From a virus: a stretch of DNA of 64,000 bases. Every line of letters begins with the position of its first letter. Within the stretch, counting starts at the first letter, position 1. This document shows, piece by piece, positions 1-60,916 of the stretch. The position numbers and the translations under genes were made by a program. Under the pieces are notes generated by a model. The model saw only the letters and a program-made list of their open reading frames with translations. It was not told where the DNA came from and searched no databases. Where the stretch lies: positions 32,001 to 96,000 of IMG/VR virus record IMGVR_UViG_3300045988_132810; one strand, given 5' to 3'.

Positions 1-161
1 GTTATAAGCAACCAATTGTACCAAAGCATGAAAATATGTTAATTTTCCCTCATACTATAGGTAATATTACATATTACAACAAAGAAGAATTGATTAAATG
101 GGTTGAAGACCAGCAGAAATTTAATAAAGATACCACTTATGGAGTAGGAAATTGGTGTTAA
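1..161 (+). CDS. hypothetical protein, 3' end (truncated by window edge)
   Basis: Frame 3 is open from the window edge to TAA at 159-161 (...TTYGVGNWC*). Same strand as the downstream early genes. No motif recognised. Confidence 0.3.
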   Translation, partial: YKQPIVPKHENMLIFPHTIGNITYYNKEELIKWVEDQQKFNKDTTYGVGNWC

Positions 162-195
162 ATAACAAATAAAAATATATTTTTAAGGTGAATGT

Positions 196-510
196 ATGGA
201 ATTGTTTAAAAAAGCATTTAGAAAGAATATGGTGACTCTTCAAAAGTTTAAGCCTATTTTTACTACTGTAGACGGTCATAGGCATACTGGTTTTGAATAT
301 AATTATGGAATTGTAGAAAAATTGCTGTGTAGTGTTCCAGAATATATGATGATTGATATTAAAAGTGATGGTTACTTAGAAGATAATTGTGGGGTAATGT
401 ACCCGCTGGCAAATATTGTGTCGATTGATTGGCAACTGGTAGACGAAAAAAAAGTAGAGGATAAATTTGGAGAATATCAAATTTTCGTAACAACAAAAGA
501 TGTAGAATAA
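196..510 (+). CDS. hypothetical early protein
   Basis: 104-aa ORF with AAGGTG upstream of the ATG, packed tightly with its neighbours. Confidence 0.6.
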   Translation: MELFKKAFRKNMVTLQKFKPIFTTVDGHRHTGFEYNYGIVEKLLCSVPEYMMIDIKSDGYLEDNCGVMYPLANIVSIDWQLVDEKKVEDKFGEYQIFVTTKDVE

Positions 511-1493: not shown

Positions 1494-1838
1494 ATGGATT
1501 ATGAATTTCATGTAGGAGATTATGTTGAAACAAAGGATGGCACCATTGGTTATATCAGCTCTGTACGTGCCACTGGTGATGTATTGTGGATGTGTACTAG
1601 CGATGGCCATGGTTATCATGCAGGTCAAGAATATGGGATTATGCATAATGTTGATTTTCCTTATTTCTATAACCGTATTGGCCAGTACACTTTTACATAC
1701 CAAGACAAAAAGCTTAAAAAGTTGACAAGTTATGGTTGGAATATGGGCGTATCTGGCGATGATCTTATTTTAAAAATCAACGAACTTATAGATGCTGTAA
1801 ATGAATTGAGGGATAAAAATGACAGGCAAGCAAAATAA
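1494..1838 (+). CDS. hypothetical early protein
   Basis: 114-aa ORF, the longest in its region, on the same strand as its neighbours. Confidence 0.6.
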   Translation: MDYEFHVGDYVETKDGTIGYISSVRATGDVLWMCTSDGHGYHAGQEYGIMHNVDFPYFYNRIGQYTFTYQDKKLKKLTSYGWNMGVSGDDLILKINELIDAVNELRDKNDRQAK

Positions 1839-1849
1839 GTTTAATAGAT

Positions 1850-2041
1850 ATGCACTTATATACTGTCGAATACGCGCCAAGCATCCAAATTGGAGCCATG
1901 GACAGATTAAATATTGTACTATATATGCTTGGAGAAGGACACAACATGACAAGAAGTGAATATGATCAGCTTCATAAACTGTTGCACACATTGCAGACAG
2001 AGGCTCCTTGTCATAATAGATCTTGTAAATGCTGTAAATAA
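1850..2041 (+). CDS. hypothetical protein
   Basis: 63-aa ORF that fills a gap. No clear ribosome-binding site. Confidence 0.35.
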   Translation: MHLYTVEYAPSIQIGAMDRLNIVLYMLGEGHNMTRSEYDQLHKLLHTLQTEAPCHNRSCKCCK

Positions 2042-2056
2042 ATGGAGGAATAAATA

Positions 2057-2248
2057 ATGGGTATTTATTATTTTGCAAGACCTAATCAGATGGTTGGGCA
2101 TAAGTTTACTGATGATGTTGCAGTTGTATATGCAATGAGCAAGGGATCTGCAATTAAGAAGTTCTCTGTATTATATAAAGATGTGCAGGATAATGAAGTC
2201 AAGAAGATTAGTTTCTGGAATAGAGCCATAGTCTTAACAGACTACTAA
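2057..2248 (+). CDS. hypothetical protein
   Basis: 63-aa ORF with GGAGG upstream. Confidence 0.5.
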   Translation: MGIYYFARPNQMVGHKFTDDVAVVYAMSKGSAIKKFSVLYKDVQDNEVKKISFWNRAIVLTDY

Positions 2249-2280
2249 AATAAACAAAAAAATAAGCTAGGAGATAAAAT

Positions 2281-2517
2281 ATGGAATCAGTATGCAGAAA
2301 TTGTGATTTAGGATTAAAGCGTTCAGAATGTACTGACAAAGAACATACTGAATGTGAATGTCGTAAATGGATAATTAAAGAAATTAATCAAACTACTTTA
2401 TTAGGTTTGATGCATCTTTTAGATGAAGTTCTTGAAACAGTTTCTGAGAACAAAAATGATTTACGAAACAATAAAGCTAGAATGATCGAATTTCTGAGTA
2501 GAGGGATGATTGAGTGA
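2281..2517 (+). CDS. hypothetical Cys-rich protein
   Basis: 78-aa ORF with AGGAG upstream. Its stop overlaps the ligase start. Confidence 0.5.
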   Translation: MESVCRNCDLGLKRSECTDKEHTECECRKWIIKEINQTTLLGLMHLLDEVLETVSENKNDLRNNKARMIEFLSRGMIE

Positions 2518-4451
2518 ATAAAATTGAAACTATTAAAAATCTGACAGCCAAACTGCTGCAGTATTGCGATGAATATTATAATTTAGACCGTCCGACTATC
2601 TCTGACGCAGAATATGATAAGAAGTTTGACGAACTTAAATCACTTGAGGATGAAACAGGATTTTGGCTTGCCAATTCTCCTACTCGTAAGGTACAGGGGC
2701 AAGCGCTTGATTGTTTTACGAAAGTTAAGCATAGTAAACCAATGCTTTCTGCAGCAAAGACTAAAGATGCGAATGAAATTAAAAAATTTATTGGCAATCA
2801 GCCATTTTATTGTAGCTACAAGTTAGATGGGCTTACACTCGTGGTTCGCTACGAAAATGGAGAATTTATTCAGGCTGTAACTCGTGGCAATGGTGAAATT
2901 GGTGAAGATGTGACCGCTCAAGCAAGAATGATTTCAAATCTTCCAATGCATATTGATTACAACGATAAACTTGAACTTCGCGGCGAATGTGTGATTTCTT
3001 GGAAGAATTTTCACAAGATTAATGAGTCTCTTGATGAGCCTTATAGTCATCCTCGCAACTTAGCAGCGGGGAGCCTCCGTCAGCTTGATACAAATATTAC
3101 AAAGCAGCGCAATCTTTCTTATGTGGTTTTTGAGTGTGTATCAAATCTATATGATAACAATACACTATTTGATTCTAAATTAGACGAACTTGGATATCTA
3201 GATTGCCTTGGATTTGAAACTGTTGGGCGATGTATTGGAAATGTTGATGATTGTATCGAAGGTATGCAACCAGATTGGTATCAATATCCTTGTGATGGAT
3301 TAATCTTTGAAATGTGCATGAAGTCATATTCCAAGACACTACCAGTTACCGCACATCATGAGGGATGTCGTATGGCTCTTAAGTGGGCTGATGAAATGTA
3401 TGAGACAACTCTTCGAGATGTAGAGTGGAATCCAACAAGAAGCGGATTAATCGCACCTGTCGCAATCTTTGATGAAATAGATTTAGATGGGGCATTAACT
3501 ACAAGAGCAACACTCCATAATCTTTCTATCATTGAGCAGCTTGAACTTGGGATTGGTGATACTATTACGGTATACCGCAGCAATATGGTGATTCCTAAAG
3601 TTTATGACAATCTAACTCGTAGCAATACACTAACAATTCCAACTACGTGTCCTTGTTGTGGAGAGCCTACTGAGATTAAATATACTGATAATAGTAAAGT
3701 TCTCATGTGTACTAATCCAAATTGCGCAGCAAAGAAATTGGCACAGTTTACGCATTTTGTAAGTCGTAAAGCAATGAGCATTGATGGTCTATCAGAGAAG
3801 ACACTTGAGCTGCTAATTTCCCATGGATTTTTGCATAATTATAAGGACATTTATCGTTTGAAAGAACATAAGAATGAAATTACACAACTGCCGGGGATGG
3901 GGGTAAAATCTGTAGATAAACTGCTAGATTCTATTGAAAAATCAAGGACAGTAACGCTTGATAGATTTATTACTGCGCTTGGTATTCCTAATATTGGCTC
4001 TTCTGCGGCAAAAGCTATTAGTAAGCAATTTAATGGAGACCATTATGATTTTGTACAAGCATTAGCTAATGGATATGATTTTTCGCAAATTGATGATTTC
4101 GGAGAAATTACAAATAAGTCAATTCATGATTGGTGGAATAGCAAAGATCCAATGGTTGAATTGCTTCCTGTTGAGATGAACTTTATCGTTGAGAATGATG
4201 TGGGTTCTAGTTCCAATCTTGATGGTAAAAGCTTCTGCATTACAGGAAGTTTAACTCATTACCCAAATAGGGATGCACTTGTTAAAGCCATTGAAGACAA
4301 TGGCGGCAAATATGTATCTGGAGTGAGCAAGAAGACTGACTATCTTATTAATAATGATACCACAAGCACAAGCGGCAAGAATAAGAAGGCTATTGAATTA
4401 AATATTCCAATTATTAGCGAGGAGGATTTTCTTAAAATGCTATCAGAATAA
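2514..4451 (+). CDS. ligA: NAD-dependent DNA ligase
   Basis: GTG start after GAGGGA. N-terminal Ia-type region (YYNLDRPTISDAEYDKKFDEL), adenylation motif SYKLDG, Cys4 zinc finger CPCCGEP...CTNPNC, HhH region and a C-terminal BRCT-like segment (GKSFCITGSL). Confidence 0.95.
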   Translation: MNKIETIKNLTAKLLQYCDEYYNLDRPTISDAEYDKKFDELKSLEDETGFWLANSPTRKVQGQALDCFTKVKHSKPMLSAAKTKDANEIKKFIGNQPFYCSYKLDGLTLVVRYENGEFIQAVTRGNGEIGEDVTAQARMISNLPMHIDYNDKLELRGECVISWKNFHKINESLDEPYSHPRNLAAGSLRQLDTNITKQRNLSYVVFECVSNLYDNNTLFDSKLDELGYLDCLGFETVGRCIGNVDDCIEGMQPDWYQYPCDGLIFEMCMKSYSKTLPVTAHHEGCRMALKWADEMYETTLRDVEWNPTRSGLIAPVAIFDEIDLDGALTTRATLHNLSIIEQLELGIGDTITVYRSNMVIPKVYDNLTRSNTLTIPTTCPCCGEPTEIKYTDNSKVLMCTNPNCAAKKLAQFTHFVSRKAMSIDGLSEKTLELLISHGFLHNYKDIYRLKEHKNEITQLPGMGVKSVDKLLDSIEKSRTVTLDRFITALGIPNIGSSAAKAISKQFNGDHYDFVQALANGYDFSQIDDFGEITNKSIHDWWNSKDPMVELLPVEMNFIVENDVGSSSNLDGKSFCITGSLTHYPNRDALVKAIEDNGGKYVSGVSKKTDYLINNDTTSTSGKNKKAIELNIPIISEEDFLKMLSE

Positions 4452-4457
4452 AATTTA

Positions 4458-4483
4458 GGGGAGAACTTATCTCCCCATTTTTT
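4458..4483 (+). terminator. rho-independent terminator after ligA
   Basis: 7-bp GC-rich stem GGGGAGA/TCTCCCC with a 5-nt loop, followed by ATTTTTT. Confidence 0.7.
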
Positions 4484-4497
4484 ATGCATTTAACTAC

Positions 4498-4525
4498 TTG
4501 ACAAATCAAAATTTTGTGATATTAT
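4498..4525 (+). promoter_or_regulatory. sigma-70-type promoter with extended -10
   Basis: TTGACA, a 16-nt spacer, then TGaTATTAT. The spacer holds the palindrome CAAAATTTTG. Confidence 0.65.
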
Positions 4526-4538
4526 ATGTATAGTTGAA

Positions 4539-4552
4539 CAATACAAAATTAT
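4539..4552 (+). promoter_or_regulatory. conserved intergenic 14-mer CAATACAAAATTAT (copy 1)
   Basis: Exact 14-mer lying between the promoter and the ribosome-binding site of the 4566 ORF. Confidence 0.5.
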
Positions 4553-4565
4553 AGTTAAGGAGTTG

Positions 4566-4742
4566 ATGCATGATATGATTGAATATAATAATTGCTGTGT
4601 CGCATGTGGTGAAATTATTCCTGAAGGAAGACAGGTTTGCTCACAGTGTGAGAGAAAATATGAAGCAAAAGATGATGCGACTGATAATATTCAGAAAAAA
4701 CAAAACACATTTATAAATTACATTAAAAAATATTTTATTTAA
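4566..4742 (+). CDS. small zinc-ribbon protein (58 aa)
   Basis: AAGGAG upstream. Product MHDMIEYNNCCVACGEIIPEGRQVCSQCERKYE... has two CxxC pairs. Below the ORF-track cutoff. Confidence 0.45.
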   Translation: MHDMIEYNNCCVACGEIIPEGRQVCSQCERKYEAKDDATDNIQKKQNTFINYIKKYFI

Positions 4743-4757
4743 GAAAGGATTTACATT

Positions 4758-5000
4758 ATGAAAAAGAACAACACGAACAATCAGAACGCGACGCTAATGG
4801 TTACTAGTCTAGAGGATAATGGCGACTATATTCTCTCGTATATTCCGCTGTCTATTGACATGGATCTGCTTCAGCATATTCTAGCTGAGGGCAAGAGCAC
4901 TAATAGCGAAGTCGTGCAGTACGTGCTAGATTGTGACGAAAAGACTTATTGGAAGGATATGTGGGAGAGTTTCAAGGAGGAGCCAGAGAATGACGCATAA
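4758..5000 (+). CDS. hypothetical protein
   Basis: 80-aa ORF with AAAGGA upstream. Confidence 0.55.
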   Translation: MKKNNTNNQNATLMVTSLEDNGDYILSYIPLSIDMDLLQHILAEGKSTNSEVVQYVLDCDEKTYWKDMWESFKEEPENDA

Positions 5001-7039: not shown

Positions 7040-8017
7040 ATGGGGAAAGTGACTTGGACTAAAGAACAGGAAGAGTATCTAGAAAAATTATATTCACAAT
7101 ACCTTCCATTAAAAGATATTGTTGAGAAAATAAATGATTTTTCTGGGATTGCCCGTACATATACGGCAGTCTCTAATAAAGCAGGAAGTATGGGGTTAAC
7201 TAAAAAATATATAAAGCAAAATAATGCTCATTTTGAAGCGATTTATCAAAATTACAATTGGTATTATGACATGTTCGTTGAAAGAGGATTGAATCATGAC
7301 GAAATGGCAAAAATCGCGAGCTGTACAAAACGAGTAATAGAGAAATGGGGACAAGAAAAGCACCATATAGACACATACACTAGGATGAAAAATAAACAAA
7401 TAAATGCACAACAGCATGATTTAATTATTGGTTCATTGCTAGGAGATGGACACATTGATAAAAGAGAAGATTTCCCATTGTTTATTGTAAGTCATGCAAA
7501 AAATCAAAAAGATTATCTGTATTATAAATATGAAATTATGAAAGATTTGTGTGAGATGACTCCAACGGAGTACAATGGGAAAAAAGAATATTCTATAATG
7601 GGCAGTGTATGTAATTGTCAAGATTTTTATAGATTCAATACTAGGACATACTATTCGTTAAAGCCGTTTCGAGATATGACAAAAATAGACTTAATTCGTT
7701 GTCTTAATGAATATTCATTCTCTATTTGGATGTTAGACGATGCGCATTGTAATATAAAAGGATATTGGGAGTTGTGCGCTCCATTGGAAACAGAGTCTGA
7801 AAGAAAAGAGCTGATATCATCCCTTCAAAACAAATTTGGCCTATCAACAGTTCAGAAAAAAGACAATAGATATTTTCGATTTCATTCAGAAGATTCTTTA
7901 AAAATTACAAAAATAATATTAAACAACATCCCCCACAATTTAGATATTGTGCAAGATAAGATATTGTCTAAAAATAAATATCGTGCATTAGGAGGTGAAA
8001 AAAATGAGTTTCGTTAA
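7040..8017 (+). CDS. free-standing double-motif LAGLIDADG homing endonuclease
   Basis: Two LAGLIDADG-type motifs (LIIGSLLGDGHI and SIWMLDDAH) follow an N-terminal HTH-like region. The 3' end overlaps the dnaE start by 14 nt. Confidence 0.8.
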   Translation: MGKVTWTKEQEEYLEKLYSQYLPLKDIVEKINDFSGIARTYTAVSNKAGSMGLTKKYIKQNNAHFEAIYQNYNWYYDMFVERGLNHDEMAKIASCTKRVIEKWGQEKHHIDTYTRMKNKQINAQQHDLIIGSLLGDGHIDKREDFPLFIVSHAKNQKDYLYYKYEIMKDLCEMTPTEYNGKKEYSIMGSVCNCQDFYRFNTRTYYSLKPFRDMTKIDLIRCLNEYSFSIWMLDDAHCNIKGYWELCAPLETESERKELISSLQNKFGLSTVQKKDNRYFRFHSEDSLKITKIILNNIPHNLDIVQDKILSKNKYRALGGEKNEFR

Positions 8018-10322
8018 TCTCCACGTACATAGCGCTCAAGGCTCACTTCTTGACTCTATTCTTACTGTAAAACAAATTGCTCAGTATGCGAAAGACAATG
8101 GGCAACCAGCAATTGCTCTAAGTGACCATGGCTTTATGTATGCGTCAATGAATCACGTTATTGAATGTCAAAAGCTTGGCATCAAACCTATCACTGCATG
8201 TGAAATTTATGAATGTGATGACCATATGCTTAAAAACGATACAAAAGACAATGTGCAACCAAGATATCATTTGCTTTTAATTGTAAAAAATCAAATCGGG
8301 AAAGATAACCTTTTTAAAATAGTATCAGAAGGATGTACGAATGGCATGTATAAAAAGCCAAGAGTGTCAATTCAGTGGATCAAAGACAACAATTTAGGGG
8401 AAGGTATTATTTGTCTCACTGCATGTCAAGCTGGACGACTAGCAAAATACCTTGACACAGGAATGTATCAAGAAGCAGAAGAATTTGTTAATCTGCTTAA
8501 AGACACATTTGATTATGTTGCTTGTGAGATTCAGTCACATCCAACAGAGTCTCAGCTAAGGTCAAACACTCTTATTTGGAAATTTGCTAATCATCTTCAA
8601 ATTCCATATGTCATTACAACAGATGCTCATATGCTGAGAGCAGATCAACTAGATACACATTCAATCTTTGTAGAAATTGGAGAAGGCAGAGAAGCAGGAG
8701 AAACTTATATTGGATGCCACCTTCAAAATGAAGAAGACATTTATAAATATCTTGGAAATTGGAATCTAGACAGGGTAATTCAGCATGGTATTGATGAAAC
8801 AATTCACATTGCCAATATGGTGGATGACAATATTGATTATGAGTTAAATAAGGGTACAATAATGCCAAAGGCTCATATCCCAGACGGATATGACACAGAG
8901 TCATATTTTAGATATTTAGTATATTCTACATTTGATGAAAAGTTTGGGCATATGCCACAAGAAGAGCAGGATGCACGTAGAGAAAGAATTGAGTCTGAAA
9001 TTCCCGTCTTGAAAGAATTAGACTTTTTGAACTATCTTTTAATTCAGTATGAATTTTGTAATGAATGTGATAGGCGTGGAATCCCAAGAGGGTATAGTCG
9101 TGGTTCCGCTGCAAATTGCCTTTGCGTTTTTATGCTAAATATTACTCAAATAGATAGTGTAAAATATGATCTAGACTTTACAAGATTCGCGAATCTAGGT
9201 CGTAAAGGCTCGGCAGCAGATATTGACTTGGATATTTCAAAAGCTAGAAGACAAGAAGCAATCCAAGTCCTGTGTGATATTTTTGGACAAGATCACGTTG
9301 CACCAATGGCAACATTTAATACACTCAGCACTAAAGTAGCAATTAGTGATATTGGAAAAGTATTAAATGACAAACAGGACAGCCCATACTTTGGGCAAAT
9401 CCCATATAGTCTGAGGAACGAAGTAACAAAAATGATTCCTACAATCAAGACATTAAACGATCTTGGTGAGTCGGAAGACAAAGACATGTTGCTTAAAGAC
9501 CTTATTGGCAAGAACGAAAAACTTGATAAAATTTATAAACAATTCCCTTTATGGTTTAAATATGTTATGGAGCTTGAAGGGCTCCCAAAATCGCGGGGTC
9601 GTCATGCAAGCGGTACTCTATTAACTCCTAAACCAGTATTACATTATGCCCCATTATGTTTAGATAATGAAAAGCATGTTATGGCACAATTTGAAATGCA
9701 TATATGCCAAGATACTGATGGTGGAATGGGCCTCGTTAAGGAAGATGCACTTGGGCTTGAAACATTAGACATCCTCGATTCGGCTTTAAAAAATGCCAAT
9801 TTAACATGGAAAGACGTTGATATTAATCATTTAAATATTGATGATAAGAAAGTATTTAAAGAAATCTATGCTTCTGGCAATACTGTTGGGATCTTCCAAT
9901 TTGAAAGCGCCGAGGCAAGGAACATGAGTATTGCGGCGCATGTTGACAACATTGAGGATGTTATCGCCATAAATGCAAGTAATCGTCCCGGAACAAAAAA
10001 TAGTTTTCCTGATTATTGCAAAAATAAATTGTGCCCAGAATCCATTCAATGTATACATCCAGATTTAAAAAAACTATTTCAAAAAACATGGGGAATTCTT
10101 TTATATCAAGAAGATTCGCTCCATTTGCTTGCATATGCAGGTTTTAATGAGGTAGAACAGGACACTGGACGTAGGGCCATCGGCAAAAAAAAGAAAGATG
10201 TTATGGCCTCTTTGTATACACAATTTGCAGATGGGCTAAGAAAAAAACAATGGACAGAGCAACAAATCAAAGAAGTTTGGGCTTTACTTGAGAAACAAGC
10301 AGAATATAGCTTCAATCGTGGT
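8004..10322 (+). CDS. dnaE: DNA polymerase III alpha subunit (DnaE-type), exon 1
   Basis: GGAGG lies 8 nt upstream of ATG 8004. PHP domain start FVNLHVHSAQGSLLDS. The ORF stops at a TAA immediately after ...YSFNRG, in the middle of the conserved FN(K/R)xHAxAY motif. Confidence 0.9.
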
Positions 10323-10532
10323 TAACACAATGGCCCCTTATATTGGCGACAATATATTGAACACCGAATATGCTGGAACACCCTTAGAGCTTCACATACC
10401 AAGGCGTAATAGTTGTGGAGATTGGGCAATCAGCAGGGAGTAATGACCCTCAACGACCACCAAGGTGCTTCTCTCAGAGAAGATGGTATGGTCTAATCCC
10501 TTTTAAATACTGCGAAAGCAGGGGTATAAATG
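10323..10532 (+). ncRNA. putative ORF-less group I intron in dnaE (210 nt)
   Basis: Excision joins FNRG to HAVAYSLLSYLTAWMKVYYP in frame. The exon ends in U and the intron ends in G. Its 5' end TAACACAATGGCC resembles that of the tape-measure intron. There is a CTGC-GAAA-GCAG tetraloop hairpin at 10510-10521. P1 is weak: GUGGU/GCCCC with one mismatch. Confidence 0.7.
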
Positions 10533-11552
10533 CATGCTGTTGCTTATAGTCTGTTATCTTATCTTACCGCATGGATGAAAGTATATTATCCAGTAGAATT
10601 TATGACCGCACTTTTGACAGCGAAGTCGGACAATACTTCAAAGCTTAGTGTTATTATTACAGATTGTCATAGAATGGGAATCAAAGTACTTCCGCCTAAG
10701 ATTAATGAGTCTGAATTTTCTTTTAAGGCTAAGCCAGAGACTAAAGAAATCCTTTTTGGTTTTGGCGCAGTAAAAGGCATTGGCGAGTCAGTAATTACTA
10801 AGATTATTGAGAACCAGCCATATAGCAGCTTTGATGATTATCTGTCAAAAATCCAAGATAAAGCGGCCACAATTGCTCTAATTAAAGCTGGTGCTTTCCC
10901 TACTTCTAATAAAATGAAGCTGATGAGAAAGTATGCTACCTTATCGTATGATAAGAAAGAATATAAACCAGTTCAATCATATGGGACAAAAGCAAAATTA
11001 TTGCTAAATTGGGATATCAACGTAGATGATTACAAGGCTGGCAAAAAAGTAGATAAAGAAGCCGTGCTGCAATTGTATAATGCAAAGCGTAAAGAAAAGT
11101 TCGACCAAGTGCAAGAGGTCAAATATAAAGCGTATATGACAGAGTTCCAACAAAAATATGCTAGAGATCAATTCCTATGGGAATACGAAAGCTTATCAAT
11201 GTTTTTGACAGAGAACCCATTGCAAGAAGGTGTAGATTTAATAAACGCTAATTGGGATGATGTCCCGAATGGAGAAAAAACAGTTGTCTTGTGTGTTATA
11301 TCAGACATAAAGCGCAAGAAAGATAAAAACAACAATCCCTTCGCATATCTAGATTTGATTACTTCTGATAGAATTATTGAAGCGACTATTTGGAGTAGAC
11401 AACTAAAAGAATATTTTGATCTTATCTCGAAGGGCAAGTGCCTTGCAATTCTTGGAAGGAAAGAAGACGATCATTTGTTCGTTGAAAAAGTTAAACCCTA
11501 CACCGTTTGGCTCGAAAAAATAAAACATACACGTGCCAAAAAGACATCTTGA
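10533..11552 (+). CDS. dnaE: DNA polymerase III alpha subunit, exon 2
   Basis: Continues as HAVAYSLLSYLTAWMKVYYPVEFMTALL..., then an HhH-like segment (GFGAVKGIGES) and an OB-like C-terminus. In frame with exon 1 once 10323-10532 is removed. Confidence 0.9.
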   Translation, partial: HAVAYSLLSYLTAWMKVYYPVEFMTALLTAKSDNTSKLSVIITDCHRMGIKVLPPKINESEFSFKAKPETKEILFGFGAVKGIGESVITKIIENQPYSSFDDYLSKIQDKAATIALIKAGAFPTSNKMKLMRKYATLSYDKKEYKPVQSYGTKAKLLLNWDINVDDYKAGKKVDKEAVLQLYNAKRKEKFDQVQEVKYKAYMTEFQQKYARDQFLWEYESLSMFLTENPLQEGVDLINANWDDVPNGEKTVVLCVISDIKRKKDKNNNPFAYLDLITSDRIIEATIWSRQLKEYFDLISKGKCLAILGRKEDDHLFVEKVKPYTVWLEKIKHTRAKKTS

Positions 11553-13837: not shown

Positions 13838-14167
13838 AAGCGTAAACTTATAGCTCATGTAAAACCTTTTGAACCTCGCCAGAGGGTGTCTAATTTAGGC
13901 TAACGGTTAGGACTCTACGAGTTGAGACCGTGCTAAGTAATTAAGAATAGATTATTTCAGGGCAATGGATGGTGATATGTGCGACAATTTATAAAATAAC
14001 TATTCTTAATTAAAAGTGTATCGACTATCCCTGATGAATGTATGGGAGTAGGGGCAGAGATTGGCGCTGCCGTTGTTTTAGGAAACGAAGCAACTGAGAA
14101 CCGAAGCGGAAGGCTATCGAAAGATAGAAGATATAGTCAGTGCAGATGGCAACATCTGATAAACACG
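13838..14167 (+). ncRNA. putative ORF-less group I intron in nrdD (330 nt)
   Basis: Excision gives YFSTMG|CRTANGYD in frame. The exon ends in U and the intron ends in G. 7-bp P1: CAUGGGU (13831-13837) pairs with GCUCAUG (13853-13859), with U.G at the splice site. S-element-like AAGATATAGTC at 14128-14138. GAAA tetraloop hairpin at 14114-14127. Perfect 13-bp stem 13938-13950 / 14000-14012. Confidence 0.85.
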
Positions 14168-37850: not shown

Positions 37851-38163
37851 CGATCTATTACTTTCCCACGAAAACCAAATGGTACTGACCGATTATGTAA
37901 TCGGCGGCAAGGTCTTTCGGCCTTGCTCTACGATTTTATTTTTAGATTATTGTCGTAGTCTAGACTGGATCTTCACCCTCATTCCCGTCATTATACGGAG
38001 TAGGGGAACAGCGGAACCTGTTATGTTACCATAAAAGGTCTTACAGTCGTTACGGATACTTTGCACACTGCAAAGTCTTTCCTCGGTCTTGACCATCTCT
38101 GGCTTTTAACCGATATAGCTGTTTTCTTTCAATATATTACTATATTGTTAGGCTATTATGTTA
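37851..38163 (-). ncRNA. putative ORF-less group I intron in the tape-measure gene (313 nt)
   Basis: Excision gives ...VVQNPESVG|TAMKTLSLRIRG in frame. The exon ends in U and the intron ends in G. 5-bp P1 UAGGU/GCCUA with U.G at the splice site. The 3' end AGTAATAGATCG|ACAGC nearly matches that of the CotH-gene intron. Confidence 0.8.
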
Positions 38164-41100
38164 ACCTACAGATTCTGGATTTTGCACAACGCTATTGGCG
38201 GCTGTAATTAACCCAATAGACTCATCAAGTGTATTGCCAGCCTCTGCCATAGCACTAGCAGAACGCAATAGCGCTTGTCCAATACCTGATGAACTGATTG
38301 CAAAGTGGTTTCCCACCTCGTTGAATTTATCTACGATTCCCATAGCATGAGACGCTTCAATACCAAATCCGTGCATTGTAGAAATGATACTGTCAGAAGC
38401 CTCACCAATATCGGCTAGGTCATCACCAACGTTATAATAAACGGAAGCGGCCTTTGCCAAGTCAGATGCTTGTTCAATGTTATATCCTAACCTTGCGAAA
38501 TCTGCTGTAGCATTAGTAAAATCTTTAACGGTAGAGCCGATCTGCCCAGCAGTTTTAGACGCATCTTGTAAGAATCTCTTATAACTTTCATCAGTTTCGT
38601 CAGTAACTTTTTTCAGTTCAGTTAACGCTGCGTCAATTTCTCTTACATATGTAATACCTTGCTTAATTTGAGCAACAGTTTTATACACCATATTTGCGCC
38701 AGTAAAGTATGTAAGAATTTCACCAGACTTTTTCTTAACATTGCTAAAGAAAGAGCCAAGCGTACTACTTGCTTTGCCCATATTCTTAGCGGAAGCATTA
38801 ATAGCATTTCCCGCTTGATTAAACGATGCAGTTAGTTTTTCTACTTCGCCATTGCCATTCTTTATTGTAAAAGTAACCTTGGAATAGTTGTCAGCGAACT
38901 GAATAGATTTTTTATCTAACCCATCAAAAGAATTAGCAAATGCTTCTAATTCACTTCTTCTGCTTGCTTCGTCGCCAATATCAAAGCCATCAGAGACTGC
39001 ACGAGTGATATTACCAACTTTGTTTTTCATCTCTTCGGACTTCTTAATGATATTTTCAATTGCTTTGCCATATTTATTAAATGACTCAACTGCACTATCA
39101 AACTCTGCGGCCTTTTGCTTACCCAAATCCGAAGTGATGTCTATGTTTGCAAGCTCTTTTTGAAGTGTAATTATTCTTTGATATGCTTGCTCGTATTGCT
39201 GTAATTGAGTAGTAACCCCGGAGGCATTGGCATAGCCTTTGCTATTAACGCTATTAATTAACCCAGTATGCTTTGTTTCGACTTGTCCGACAACATCTGC
39301 CCCATACAAAGTATTGTTTTGCTTTGCTGAGTCCTTCTTTACCTTTGCGTACTGTTCAAAATCGCTCATGAGCTGCTTTGTCGCAGCACTCAACCTTTGC
39401 ATGTCATCTTCTGACACTTTACCAAAGGCTTCTTCGGACTTTGTTAGATCTTGTATCTCCTTTGATAGAGTTTCATATCTACTCTTTAACTGGCCAAGAT
39501 CACTATCTTTATCTACGAAGACTTCCGTATCAATTTTCCTAAAAGCAGAAGATAGCTTTTGATTTGCATCTATTAATGTTTTATAATTGTCTAGTTCTTT
39601 ATAGCTGTCGTTAGAACTTTTAGAACTACTAGAATGAGAAGTTATCCCTTTTCTTGTGCCCTTGCTGGAATCAGCTTCATTTCCAAGTGATTCAGCAGTT
39701 TTATCCGCGCTATCTTTTACATTTTGGTTTGCATTAGCAAAATCATTTTTCGCTTGAGTGGCTGACGCGAAAGCCTCGCTCGCTTCTCTCGCCTTTTCTA
39801 TTTCTTTTTCTATAGCAACCGCAGAAGCTTCCGCACTTTCCTTAACTCGTGCATTAGCTTCAACAAACTGATTTTTTTGTTCCGTCGCCGCCGCAAATGA
39901 TTCCTGTACACCACTAACGCTGGCTACTTCGGGAGCAGTCGTTGCAGGATCTCCTGTATTTTGACCATTAGCAATCTCACCAGTTGCTGTCTTCGAAACC
40001 TTTGACGCATCGCTCTGATTTTGTTTTTCTTTTTCTTTTGTAATTTGCTGTTGCGTTTCCAATTGTTGCTTTGCTTCTTCATTTTGTTGTTTCTCTACTG
40101 CCAACTCTTGCTCTGCCGCATCGGTGCCTTTTTGCTTTGCTTCTGTCGCACTACCTAATTGTACTTTTGCTTCAGCAAGCTTGGTTTTTAATTCATCAAT
40201 TACAGAAGACAAATTTTCAATTTTTGCTCTATATTCATCTACGACATCATTTGAAGTCATATTATCGACTTCGCTCATCGGGACAGAATTATCTAGAGCA
40301 TTTTGGATGTCGTAATAACTATTCTTCCACGAATCTAAAGCACCTTCCATACGAAGGATTTCTTCTTCCAATTCTTGTACTTGTTTTTGTGCCGCGTCAA
40401 GCTCGGAAGCGTCAACAGGATTTGTCGGAATAGCATTTAATTTTTCTTTAAGAGCGGCAATTTCTTGCATAAGCTCTTTTTCTTTTTCAAGCTGCGCGGT
40501 TTGATTGTCCATTTGATTAGACTGAGTTGAAGGCTGCCCAGACTGAATCTGATTAAGCTTTTCTTGCGCGGTAGTCTCCTCGTTGATAGCCTCAGTAGTT
40601 TTTTGATGTGCTTCTGCTGCTTGCGCTTCGATTTCCTTAATTCTAGCTACGCTTTGATTCCAAGCATTAGTAGAGTCAATTTCTCCACTCTCGAACGAGC
40701 TAAAAATATCTTTAAACTTGTCCCAATCGGCGGTGTGCGATGGATTTAATGTTGCCAATAAACTTTTTAATTTTTCAATTGGTGCAACAGAATTTTCTCC
40801 ATTCTTTTGTATTTCGGCTAAATAAGATGACAACTCTGGTAGCTGTTCCATTGTATATGTCTTAACAGTCGAAGCTAACCCATTGTCTGTAAACGCCTTA
40901 TCTAGGGCTTGATTGACTTTTTCATTAAACGCAGCAATCAACTGTTCATATGAAATGCCCGCTTGCGCCGCTTTTTCTTCTGCTCCTTTTATTAATCCAA
41001 CTTCTCCGTCATTATATTCCATCAGAGGAAATTCTTTTGTAGCTGCTTTTAAATTTTGAGAGTAAGATTCTCCAATTTTGATGGCCATTTCTTTAGAAAT

Positions 41101-60643: not shown

Positions 60644-60916
60644 CGATCTGTTACTATATAGGCTTGGCCCTATATTATGACTTACATTTCTGTAAGCGGA
60701 GCAGGTTCTTCTTTAAGCGGTCTGATTACCGTTGACCCACTCTCTGCAATTTCATTATTAGATTATAGTTGCAGTCCAGACTGTTGCATACTTCATAACT
60801 CGCGTCACAAAGCCCTTTGTACTCAGTCGTTGCAGGCGGAAAATTTCCTTCCTGAGCGTTGCCAATCTCTTGGTTTTCGCCATTAATCAACAAAGGTTTT
60901 ACAACGACAAAATTTT
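60644..60916 (-). ncRNA. putative ORF-less group I intron in the CotH-like gene (273 nt)
   Basis: Excision gives FELWDYDND|TALGINNSG in frame. The exon ends in U and the intron ends in G. 6-bp P1 AACGAU/GUCGUU with U.G at the splice site and an 8-nt loop. It shares a hairpin and its 3' end with the tape-measure intron. Confidence 0.8.

What the first reader, a model, noticed from the sequence alone, without database searches (positions are those of the whole stretch)
10323..10532. 210-nt intron-like insert splits dnaE within the FN(K/R)xHAxAY motif
Exon 1 stops at TAA directly after ...AEYSFNRG. Exon 2 continues HAVAYSLLSYLTAWMKVYYPVEFMTALL. The join FNRG|HAVAYS reproduces the spacing of the conserved Pol III alpha motif (E. 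coli GFNKSHSAAYA).

The boundaries are U|...G|. The 5' end TAACACAATG-GCC parallels that of the tape-measure intron (TAACATAATA-GCC). A GAAA-tetraloop hairpin lies near the 3' end.

P1 is only GUGGU/GCCCC with one mismatch, so this is the least secure of the four. At 210 nt it would be among the smaller group I introns.
Basis: partly seen in the sequence, partly recalled or inferred. Interest (0 to 1): 0.65.

Follow-up and report, generated by a model that had tools for sequence, protein, structure and literature searches.

The report
Self-splicing intron in phage dnaE
It is a well-known kind of element, but the standard RNA-family model misses it and I found no earlier description of one in dnaE.

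Summary
dnaE stops at ...AEYSFNRG-TAA (10323) and resumes in the same frame at HAVAYS... (10533).

About 70 related phage contigs carry the uninterrupted ...YSFNRGHAVAYS... allele. The insert is therefore exactly 10323-10532, between GGU and CAU.

Rfam RF00028 finds nothing in the window. However, an 18-nt core word of the insert occurs in more than 102 viral contigs, and Rfam calls many of those group I introns. A covariance model built only from eight such unrelated introns hits 10357-10495 at 95.3 bits (E = 4.5e-23, full length).

Covariation is strong. Across 18 family members, 95% of cells pair and 21 of 34 pairs change on both sides, including the P3/P7 pseudoknot. Against the diverged same-site intron in L027, all 57 pairs are kept and 12 changed on both sides.

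Its guide sequence nevertheless sits where the genome's other introns have theirs.

Related dnaE genes carry related introns one codon downstream and six codons upstream. The cyanobacterial DnaE intein sits in the same motif.

Verdict: a genuine ORF-less group I intron, a new member of a known kind, of moderate interest.

The parts
8004..10322 (+). dnaE exon 1 (PHP, Pol III alpha NTPase and finger domains), ending ...AEYSFNRG with GGU as its last codon
   Evidence: ORF list and translation. Pfam PF02811, PF07733, PF17657.
10323..10532 (+). ORF-less group I intron, 210 nt. It begins with an in-frame UAA and ends with the terminal G (omega-G) of AAAUG.
   Evidence: Empty-site alleles in relatives. 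CM R1 hit at 95.3 bits. Covariation. No Pfam hit for the 51-aa and 44-aa ORFs inside it.
10318..10337 (+). P1. The 5' strand is exon GUGGU (10318-10322) plus intron UA (10323-10324). It pairs with the internal guide UGGCCCC (10331-10337). There is a U.G wobble at the splice site (10322/10333) and one mismatch (10319 x 10336).
   Evidence: Sequence. Six pairs are kept in window, L008 and L027 but never vary. Weak in isolation, -3 kcal/mol. The guide lies in the same position as in the TMP, fibre and nrdD introns, each matching its own exon.
10339..10356 (+). P2 hairpin UAUAUUG-GCGA-CAAUAUA (GNRA loop)
   Evidence: z = -11 in isolation. Four pairs changed on both sides in L027.
10362..10365 (+). 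P3 5' strand CACC, pairing with 10464-10467 GGUG
   Evidence: Two double changes versus L027. Four of five P3 pairs covary in the family.
10372..10434 (+). P4-P5-P5a domain. P4 is GCUGG (10372-10376) with UCAGC (10430-10434). P5 is CCC (10381-10383) with GGG (10424-10426). P5a is CUUCACA (10390-10396) with UGUGGAG (10414-10420). J4/5 is AA.. and J5/4 is CAA. The CCUUAG/AUUGG internal loop resembles the 11-nt GAAA-tetraloop receptor; that resemblance is an inference.
   Evidence: P4 is invariant and P5a covaries in 5 of 6 pairs. The 18-mer GATTGGGCAATCAGCAGG occurs in >102 viral contigs.
10435..10450 (+). P6: AGGG (10435-10438) with CCCU (10447-10450)
   Evidence: Closing pair G-C in the window, C-G in L027. 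The family alignment shows GC, AU and CG at this pair.
10453..10459 (+). P7 5' strand (R element, CAACGACCA): A10453, bulged C10454, GACCA 10455-10459. It pairs with 10489-10494 UGGUCU (S element). The G10455-C10493 pair sits at the position of the guanosine-binding pair.
   Evidence: Pseudoknot pairs counted: two double changes versus L027, and 4 of 6 pairs covary in the family.
10468..10482 (+). P8 hairpin CUUCUC-UCA-GAGAAG
   Evidence: Two double changes versus L027. All five pairs covary in the family.
10489..10494 (+). P7 3' strand UGGUCU (S element, within GAUGGUAUGGUCUA)
10498..10524 (+). P9 (CCC 10498-10500 with GGG 10522-10524) and P9a (CUGC-GAAA-GCAG, 10510-10521)
   Evidence: MFE of the isolated 3' end. 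One double change in P9a versus L027.
10532..10532 (+). Terminal G (omega-G), the last intron base. The ATG at 10530-10532 is the intron's 3' end, not necessarily a start codon.
   Evidence: Empty-site comparison. The related L173 dnaE intron ends AAAGG with no ATG.
10533..11552 (+). dnaE exon 2 (HAVAYS..., HhH and OB-fold part), stop codon included
7040..8017 (+). Free-standing LAGLIDADG homing-endonuclease gene abutting the dnaE start. A functional link to the intron is not shown.
   Evidence: Pfam PF03161, E = 6.5e-17. Present only in the eight near-identical intron-bearing loci L002-L009.

Best explanation
Window 10323-10532 is a compact, ORF-less group I intron inserted between the Gly (GGU) and His (CAU) codons of the conserved ...AEYSFNRG|HAVAY... 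motif of a phage dnaE (Pol III alpha) gene.

Inferred mechanism, by analogy with characterised group I introns:

1. The primary transcript folds into P1-P9.
2. The guide sequence GGCCCC (10332-10337) pairs with the exon end GUGGU, giving a U.G wobble at the 5' splice site.
3. An external guanosine, bound at the G10455-C10493 pair of P7, attacks after U10322.
4. The terminal G10532 then takes that site, and the freed exon-1 3' OH attacks after it.
5. This ligates ...CGUGGU to CAUGCU... and yields mRNA for one 1112-aa DnaE.

The UAA at the first intron codon stops ribosomes that enter unspliced RNA.

What is shown: the exact insertion site, the fold, its homology to recognised group I introns, and selection on the fold. 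What is inferred: that it splices in vivo.

The intron has no endonuclease gene of its own. Its patchy distribution therefore reflects past homing followed by loss of the endonuclease gene, or mobilisation in trans.
For: 1. Exact empty site. 71 of 80 related loci read ...YSFNRGHAVAYS... without interruption, for example L010, a continuous 1111-aa ORF.
2. The joined product aligns without a gap to E. coli Pol III alpha across the junction.
3. The core word GATTGGGCAATCAGCAGG occurs in >102 viral contigs. Rfam RF00028 introns in 9 of 12 sampled loci at 58-90 bits, and L173 at 48.2 bits.
4. CM R1 was built from eight of those, none from the window's lineage. It hits 10357-10495 at 95.3 bits, E = 4.5e-23, over model positions 1-160 of 160.
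5. Family covariation over 18 sequences and 34 pairs, including the P7 pseudoknot: 95.4% paired against 77% in shuffles and at most 46% when partners are slid. 21 pairs change on both sides.
6. Same-site intron in L027 (80% identical; flanking exons about 74%). All 57 pairs are kept, 12 with changes on both sides. All 25 differences in paired columns preserve pairing.
7. The neighbouring-site intron in L012 has the same core, a perfect 6-bp P1 (GGACAU/GUGUCC, -8.4 kcal/mol) and a LAGLIDADG ORF in the P6 loop.
8. Each of the genome's other introns has a guide sequence at the same place, matching its own exon.
Against: - Rfam RF00028 gives no hit in the window, even at E <= 10 on a 451-nt slice.
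- The MFE of the whole region is no better than shuffles, z = +0.43.
- P1 is weak: six pairs including two G.U, plus one internal mismatch that persists in all three same-site introns. It shows no covariation within this lineage.
Splicing is not observed.
- An ATG directly precedes exon 2, with AGGGG five nt upstream. Separate translation of the C-terminal 340 aa from unspliced RNA therefore cannot be excluded.
- The covariation alignment A3 was fitted to the model's structure, which biases the counts towards that structure. A4 is a plain MAFFT alignment.
Confidence: 0.9

Rival explanations
1. Split polymerase. The insert is a splicing-dead relic or a plain spacer. DnaE is made as two polypeptides, 773 aa ending FNRG and 340 aa starting M-HAVAYS from the ATG at 10530, which assemble non-covalently.
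For: - ORF 10530..11552 has its own ATG, with AGGGG five nt upstream.
- Phage phiT1 has dnaE annotated as two CDSs.
- P1 is weak.
- No RNA evidence for splicing is available.
Against: - Every substitution in paired columns between the window and L027 preserves pairing, with 12 double changes. This is expected only if the RNA fold is under selection.
- The break lies inside a conserved motif that is continuous in about 70 relatives and in E. coli.
- In L027 the G-run is 11 nt from the ATG.
- The related L173 dnaE intron ends AAAGG. Its exon 2 has no start codon before the motif.
- No intein or other association domain lies at either end.
Confidence: 0.06
2. Active ribozyme fold that depends on a host or phage factor, or is regulated. 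The intron is real, but the weak P1 makes splicing inefficient or conditional, so it throttles DnaE production.
For: The P1 mismatch is kept in all three same-site introns, and P1 is only -3 kcal/mol in isolation.
Against: There is no positive evidence for regulation. In group I ribozymes P1 is also stabilised by tertiary contacts (established knowledge, not tested here). The alleles persist in at least 9 contigs of an essential gene.
Confidence: 0.03
3. Another kind of insert, such as a group II intron fragment, a MITE or other repeat, or a translational bypass element.
For: No Rfam hit. The insert length is a multiple of three in both lineages, 210 and 216 nt.
Against: - The full-length, high-scoring match to a group I model and the P3/P7 pseudoknot covariation point to a group I intron.
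- There is only a single copy in the 152-kb genome.
- Four in-frame stops and 210 nt are far beyond known bypass gaps, which is general knowledge rather than a test here.
Confidence: 0.01

Closest known systems
Group I introns in phage DNA-polymerase and other replication genes (SPO1/SP82 and Bastille DNA polymerase introns; T4 td, nrdB, sunY; Twort). Reviewed in Hausner, Hafez and Edgell 2014, PMC3984707.
   Same: - A self-splicing-type intron in a conserved motif of an essential phage replication gene.
- An exon ending in U, an intron ending in G, and a stop codon at the start of the intron.
- Canonical R/S elements (CAACGACCA ... GAUGGUAUGGUC).
- Patchy distribution among related phages.
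   Different: - The host gene is dnaE (family C polymerase), not a family A or B polymerase. My literature searches found no description of a dnaE group I intron.
- It has no homing-endonuclease ORF.
- It lacks the P7.1/P7.2 extension seen in many family members.
- Rfam RF00028 does not detect it.
Compact bacterial tRNA group I introns of Azoarcus/cyanobacterial type (subgroup IC3)
   Same: - About 200-210 nt with no peripheral domains.
- GNRA loops on P2 and P9, and a tetraloop-receptor-like internal loop in P5 (CCUUAG/AUUGG against the canonical CCUAAG/UAUGG). I recognised this by eye, from my own knowledge.
- Some family members found here do sit in tRNA genes (L164, L137).
   Different: - It is inserted in a protein-coding gene.
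- I did not test subgroup assignment. Many members of the same sequence family carry P7.1/P7.2, which is typical of IA2.
- I therefore do not file it under IC3.
Collaborative (trans) homing: an ORF-less intron plus a free-standing endonuclease that cuts the intron insertion site (cyanophage psbA/F-CphI and a second phage system; PMC3984707, section 12)
   Same: An ORF-less intron in a conserved gene, and a free-standing LAGLIDADG gene directly next to that gene (7040-8017).
   Different: - The endonuclease gene is 2.3 kb from the intron, and its target is unknown.
- It co-occurs with the intron only within one near-identical clade, L002-L009.
- L027 has the intron without it.
- Other upstream endonuclease-like genes occur next to intron-less dnaE alleles.
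Cyanobacterial DnaE split intein (Ssp/Npu), native exteins AEY|CFNK (PMC3759424)
   Same: It uses the same conserved Pol III alpha motif as insertion site. The window reads AEY-SFNRG^HAVAY, so the intron lies five codons downstream of the intein position.
   Different: The intein is removed at the protein level and the gene is truly split into two loci. Here there is no intein domain, and removal is at the RNA level.

Membership tests
Group I intron | Precise insertion relative to intron-less alleles, restoring a continuous conserved reading frame | tested here: met
   71 of 80 related loci read YSFNRGHAVAYS without interruption. The joined protein aligns without a gap to E. coli Pol III alpha.
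Group I intron | Conserved core P3-P9 with the P4-P6 and P3-P8 domains and the P3/P7 pseudoknot | tested here: met
   CM R1, built from Rfam-recognised introns, hits at 95.3 bits over its full length. 95.4% of cells pair, and 21 of 34 pairs change on both sides. Against L027, 57 of 57 pairs are kept.
Group I intron | 5' splice site after a U that forms a U.G wobble in P1 with an internal guide sequence | tested here: met
   GUGGU|UA pairs with UGGCCCC, with U10322.G10333. The helix is weak, with one mismatch. The guide is at the same position as in the genome's other three introns.
Group I intron | Terminal G at the 3' splice site | tested here: met
   The intron ends ...AAAUG|CAU. The end is fixed by the empty-site alleles.
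Group I intron | Guanosine-binding G-C pair in P7 next to a bulged nucleotide | tested here: met
   A10453-U10494, bulged C10454, G10455-C10493. This pair is G-C in 17 of 18 family members. Its function as the binding site is inferred.
Group I intron | Match to Rfam RF00028 at or above the gathering score | tested here: not met
   No hit at gathering or at E <= 10. Relatives sharing the core score 48-90 bits. I read this as a sensitivity gap of the model, not as evidence against membership.
Group I intron | Guanosine-dependent self-splicing, or a spliced transcript | not testable with these tools
Mobile group I intron with its own homing endonuclease | Endonuclease ORF inside the intron | tested here: not met
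   Only 51-aa and 44-aa ORFs overlap the insert, with no Pfam match. The neighbouring-site intron in L012 does carry a LAGLIDADG_3 ORF.
Collaborative homing pair (ORF-less intron plus free-standing endonuclease) | The free-standing endonuclease cleaves the intron insertion site of intron-less alleles | not testable with these tools
   The LAGLIDADG_2 gene at 7040-8017 is present. Co-occurrence is confined to one clade. Comparable upstream genes also occur beside intron-less alleles.
Split-intein 'fractured' dnaE | Intein N and C halves at the broken ends | tested here: not met
   Pfam finds only PHP, Pol III alpha and finger domains in ORF1, and HHH_6 and OB in ORF2. Exon 1 ends directly at FNRG.

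The most novel reading that the evidence does not exclude
This reading has two parts.

1. The eight-codon stretch E-Y-S-F-N-R-G-H-A of Pol III alpha is a shared homing hot spot for several independent selfish elements. These are three distinct group I intron sites (D|Y in L173, G|H here and in L027, H|A in L012) and the cyanobacterial DnaE intein site (Y|C). The three intron sites are supported by my data.
2. The ORF-less intron here is kept mobile in trans by the free-standing LAGLIDADG endonuclease that abuts dnaE (collaborative homing). This part is speculative, and the probability given below refers to it.
Probability: 0.12. Interest if true: 0.55.

Novelty: new member of a known kind. Interest (0 to 1): 0.36.

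Why it matters
For annotation: gene callers will report this phage's replicative polymerase as two fragments or as a pseudogene, and the standard Rfam model does not flag the intron. The same intron family is abundant in viral metagenomes, with more than 102 contigs holding an exact 18-mer match. Part of it is therefore probably under-annotated.

For biology: it extends the list of phage replication genes colonised by group I introns to the family C polymerase. It also shows that one short catalytic-domain motif has been hit at three different codon boundaries by related introns, in the same motif that carries the cyanobacterial DnaE intein. This is a clean example of selfish elements converging on invariant sequence.

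It does not reveal a new mechanism.

Tried and rejected
- **Rfam scans.** I ran cmscan at gathering on the whole window, at E <= 5 on the whole window, and at E <= 10 on 10200-10650. None gave a group I hit. I rejected this as evidence of absence after relatives scored 48-90 bits and the custom model hit the window.
- **Whole-region MFE.** z = +0.43, uninformative.
- **blastn against GenBank phages.** Only a 78-nt exon match to Clostridium phage Amboise.
- **Copies in the same genome.** None besides the insert itself. Core motifs are single-copy in the window.
- **Link between the intron and the upstream endonuclease gene.**
  - The LAGLIDADG gene occurs only in the near-identical clade.
  - L027's upstream ORF belongs to a cluster also found next to intron-less alleles. 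It has no Pfam hit itself, and its L016 homologue hits AP2 at 32.4 bits, just under the cutoff.
  - I therefore did not adopt the link.
- **Recent horizontal transfer.** Intron identity between the window and L027 is 80%, against about 74% for the flanking exons. This is not decisive.
- **R1 hit at 38724-38911 (-).** It lies inside a continuous 1559-aa ORF and is probably a false positive.
- **P1 for the L173 intron.** I could not find a convincing pairing by hand, so I left it unassigned.
- **Literature.** No paper describing a dnaE group I intron turned up.

Full report
**1. Observation**

The window is bases 32001-96000 of a 152,388-bp IMG/VR virus record with direct terminal repeats.

- An ORF running 7995..10325 carries PHP, Pol III alpha NTPase and finger domains. 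Its probable start is the ATG at 8004.
- It ends ...QAEYSFNRG followed by TAA.
- An ORF at 10530..11552 begins M-HAVAYSLLSYLTAWMKVYYPVEFMTALL and carries the HhH and OB part of DnaE.
- The two ORFs are in the same frame, 210 nt apart, with four in-frame stops between them.
  - the ends GGU|UAA...AUG|CAU;
  - the GAAA hairpin at 10510-10521;
  - the similar 5' end of the tape-measure intron (GGU|UAACAUAAUAGCC);
  - the weak P1.

**2. Exact insertion site**

I fetched 80 viral-contig loci encoding relatives of the DnaE segment just upstream of the break.

- Seventy-one read straight through ...YSFNRGHAVAYS(L/G)L.... Examples are L010 and L011 (83% identical over the queried segment just upstream of the break) and L013-L026. 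L010's dnaE is one continuous 1111-aa ORF.
- Eight loci, L002-L009, carry the same 210-nt insert at 97-100% identity.
- L027 has a more distant dnaE (flanking exons about 74% identical in nucleotides). It carries a diverged 216-nt insert (80% identical) at exactly the same GGU|CAU boundary.
- The insert is therefore 10323-10532, with no sliding ambiguity.
- The joined protein aligns without a gap to E. coli Pol III alpha. AEYSFNRG|HAVAYSLLSY matches AGYGFNKS|HSAAYALVSY, between S759 and H760 of 2HNH.

**3. What the insert is**

Rfam gives no group I hit anywhere in the window, at gathering or at permissive E-values. The MFE of the region is unremarkable.

By eye, the insert contains canonical R and S elements (CAACGACCA ... 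GAUGGUAUGGUC) and a P4/P6 segment GAUUGGGCAAUCAGCAGG.

- In a sample of 12 of those loci, Rfam RF00028 called 11 introns in nine loci at 58-90 bits. L173 scored 48.2 bits, just below the 50-bit threshold.
- I aligned the core, from the P3 5' strand to the P7 3' strand, of eight such introns. None is from the window's lineage. I gave the alignment a hand-checked structure and built covariance model R1.
- R1 hits the window at 10357-10495 on the plus strand, at 95.3 bits and E = 4.5e-23, covering model positions 1-160 of 160. L027 scores 100.4 bits and L008 98.6 bits.
- The insert is thus a member of a large phage group I intron family that RF00028 recognises only in part.

**4. Structure and covariation**

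Intron numbering below uses 1 = 10323.

| Element | Positions | Note |
|---|---|---|
| P1 | exon GUGGU + U1A2 with U9-C15 | U.G wobble at the splice site, one U x C mismatch |
| P2 | 17-23 / 28-34 | GCGA loop |
| P3 | 40-43 / 142-145 | |
| P4 | 50-54 / 108-112 | |
| P5 | 59-61 / 102-104 | |
| P5a | 68-74 / 92-98 | |
| P6 | 113-116 / 125-128 | |
| P7 | 131, 133-137 / 167-172 | bulged C132 |
| P8 | 146-151 / 155-160 | |
| P9 | 176-178 / 200-202 | |
| P9a | 188-191 / 196-199 | GAAA loop |
| Terminal G | 210 | |

A three-pair P10 (exon-2 CAU with A8-G10) is possible.

*Family alignment (18 compact members, A3), including the P3/P7 pseudoknot.*
- 95.4% of cells form standard pairs. Shuffles give 77%, and sliding the partners gives at most 46%.
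- 21 of 34 pairs change on both sides.
- The covariation score is 0.55 against 0.18 in shuffles, with 0 of 500 shuffles reaching it.
- P3, P5a, P6, P7 and P8 all covary. P4 is invariant.
- Caveat: A3 was fitted to the model's structure.

*Plain MAFFT alignment of the three same-site introns (A4).*
- All 57 proposed pairs are standard pairs in all three sequences.
- 12 pairs change on both sides: four in P2, two in P3, one in P6, two in P7, two in P8 and one in P9a.
- All 25 differences in paired columns between the window and L027 preserve pairing.
- This pattern is expected only if the fold has been under selection in both lineages, which argues for a working ribozyme rather than a relic.

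**5. P1, the weak point**

- P1 does not vary among the three same-site introns, and in isolation it is no more stable than shuffled sequence.
- The guide sequence lies at the same place, just 5' of P2, as in the genome's other introns. Each of those matches its own exon: tape-measure UAGGU/GCCUA, fibre AACGAU/GUCGUU, nrdD CAUGGGU/GCUCAUG.
- The neighbouring-site intron in L012 has a perfect GGACAU/GUGUCC P1 at -8.4 kcal/mol, z = -3.1.
- I accept the P1 assignment and note that it may limit efficiency.

**6. The split-polymerase alternative**

The ATG at 10530 and an AGGGG five nt upstream could in principle start translation of the C-terminal piece. Several points argue against this.

- In L027 the G-run lies 11 nt from the ATG.
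- Other family members show an AAAUG shortly downstream of P9, in unrelated host genes. I did not map their 3' splice sites.
- The closely related intron in the L173 dnaE ends AAAGG. Its exon 2 has no start codon before the FNKSH motif.
- The fold is under selection (section 4).
- No intein or association module is present.

**7. Context and mobility**

The intron has no endonuclease ORF. Its distribution is patchy: closer relatives such as L010 lack it, while the more distant L027 has it.

Related dnaE genes carry related introns at nearby sites.
- L012 has a roughly 1.1-kb intron one codon downstream (CAU|GCA). It shares the same core and carries a LAGLIDADG_3 ORF in the P6 loop.
- L173, a distant dnaE (30% identical), has a 349-nt intron six codons upstream (GAU|UAU). 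Its P7-P9 region is very similar to the window's, and the joined protein is gapless against the window's.

The cyanobacterial DnaE split intein has native exteins AEY|CFNK (PMC3759424). This is the same motif, five codons upstream of the window's site. Convergence of introns and inteins on conserved motifs is an established pattern (PMC3984707; PMC2814812).

A free-standing LAGLIDADG_2 gene at 7040-8017 abuts dnaE, which recalls collaborative homing (PMC3984707). The link is not supported, for three reasons.
- The gene occurs only in the near-identical clade L002-L009.
- L027 lacks it.
- Other endonuclease-like genes sit upstream of intron-less alleles. One is an AP2-domain cluster that includes both L027 and intron-less L016 and L019-L023. 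Another is a LAGLIDADG gene in L069, L072 and L077.

**8. Comparison and novelty**

The element works like the classical phage group I introns in polymerase, ribonucleotide-reductase and thymidylate-synthase genes. It meets every structural membership feature I could test, and fails only the RF00028 score.

It is compact, with no P7.1/P7.2 and with GNRA loops on P2 and P9, which resembles Azoarcus-type introns. I did not assign a subgroup.

Four full-text searches and six papers opened, three of them read for dnaE or 'polymerase III', turned up no described dnaE group I intron. A negative search of that library is not proof of absence.

I classify it as a new member of a known kind, with modest extra interest from the multi-site hot spot and the detection gap.

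**9. Earlier notes of this scan**

I treated all of these as leads only.

My model R1 hits those other introns only weakly, at 26.7, 20.2 and 19.4 bits. The dnaE intron's nearest relatives are therefore in other phages (L173, L138, L027) rather than in its own genome, although its first 45 nt or so resemble the tape-measure intron.

Noticed in passing
L012:3787-4880 (approx.): A related phage dnaE carries a roughly 1.1-kb group I intron one codon downstream of the window's site (after CAU). It has a perfect 6-bp P1, the same P4-P6 core, and a 268-aa LAGLIDADG_3 ORF in the P6 loop.
   Followed up: partly
L173:656-1004: A distant dnaE (30% identical) has a 349-nt group I intron six codons upstream (GAU|UGA...AGG|UAU). 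Its P7-P9 region is nearly the same as the window's. Rfam scores it 48.2 bits, just under threshold.
   Followed up: partly
L029, L030, L034, L035, L046, L051 (about 560-1770 of each locus): In these relatives the dnaE N-terminus lies about 1.2 kb further from the rest of the gene. A LAGLIDADG-like ORF, similar to L012's, lies in between. This suggests a further intron or intein at another dnaE site.
   Followed up: no
window 7040-8017; L016/L019-L023/L027 about 650-1470; L069/L072/L077 about 640-1480: The position immediately upstream of dnaE holds different endonuclease-like genes in different relatives, and a UvrD-like helicase in L010/L011. The window clade has LAGLIDADG_2, another cluster has an AP2-domain protein, and a third has LAGLIDADG_3. 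It looks like a hot spot for free-standing homing-endonuclease genes.
   Followed up: partly
window 60777-60900 (-), 37961-38127 (-), 14097-14140 (+): Model R1 gives weak hits (26.7, 20.2 and 19.4 bits) at the sites where earlier notes place the fibre, tape-measure and nrdD introns. These are only distant relatives of the dnaE intron's family. Rfam finds none of them.
   Followed up: partly
window 38724-38911 (-): An R1 hit of 15.9 bits lies inside a continuous 1559-aa ORF. It is probably a false positive.
   Followed up: yes
L085:4365-5202: Three Rfam-positive group I introns lie in tandem within about 840 nt of one viral contig.
   Followed up: no
L164 (upstream of 98-271, minus strand) and L137: Members of the same intron family sit inside tRNA-like genes; tRNA-like arms flank the intron.
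   Followed up: no
L184 (Rossellomorea phage phiT1, PV767480.1) 1501-4783; Alicyclobacillus phage KKP_3916 (OQ846916.1) 59316-64433: Cultured phages also have interrupted dnaE genes. In phiT1 dnaE is annotated as two CDSs with a 150-nt 'hypothetical protein' between them. In KKP_3916 the match comes in three pieces over 5 kb. These may be unannotated introns or inteins at other sites.
   Followed up: no
L138:10243-10429 (-): A close relative of the dnaE intron, with the same P9 (CUGC-GAAA-GCAG), sits in a tape-measure-like gene of another phage.
   Followed up: no
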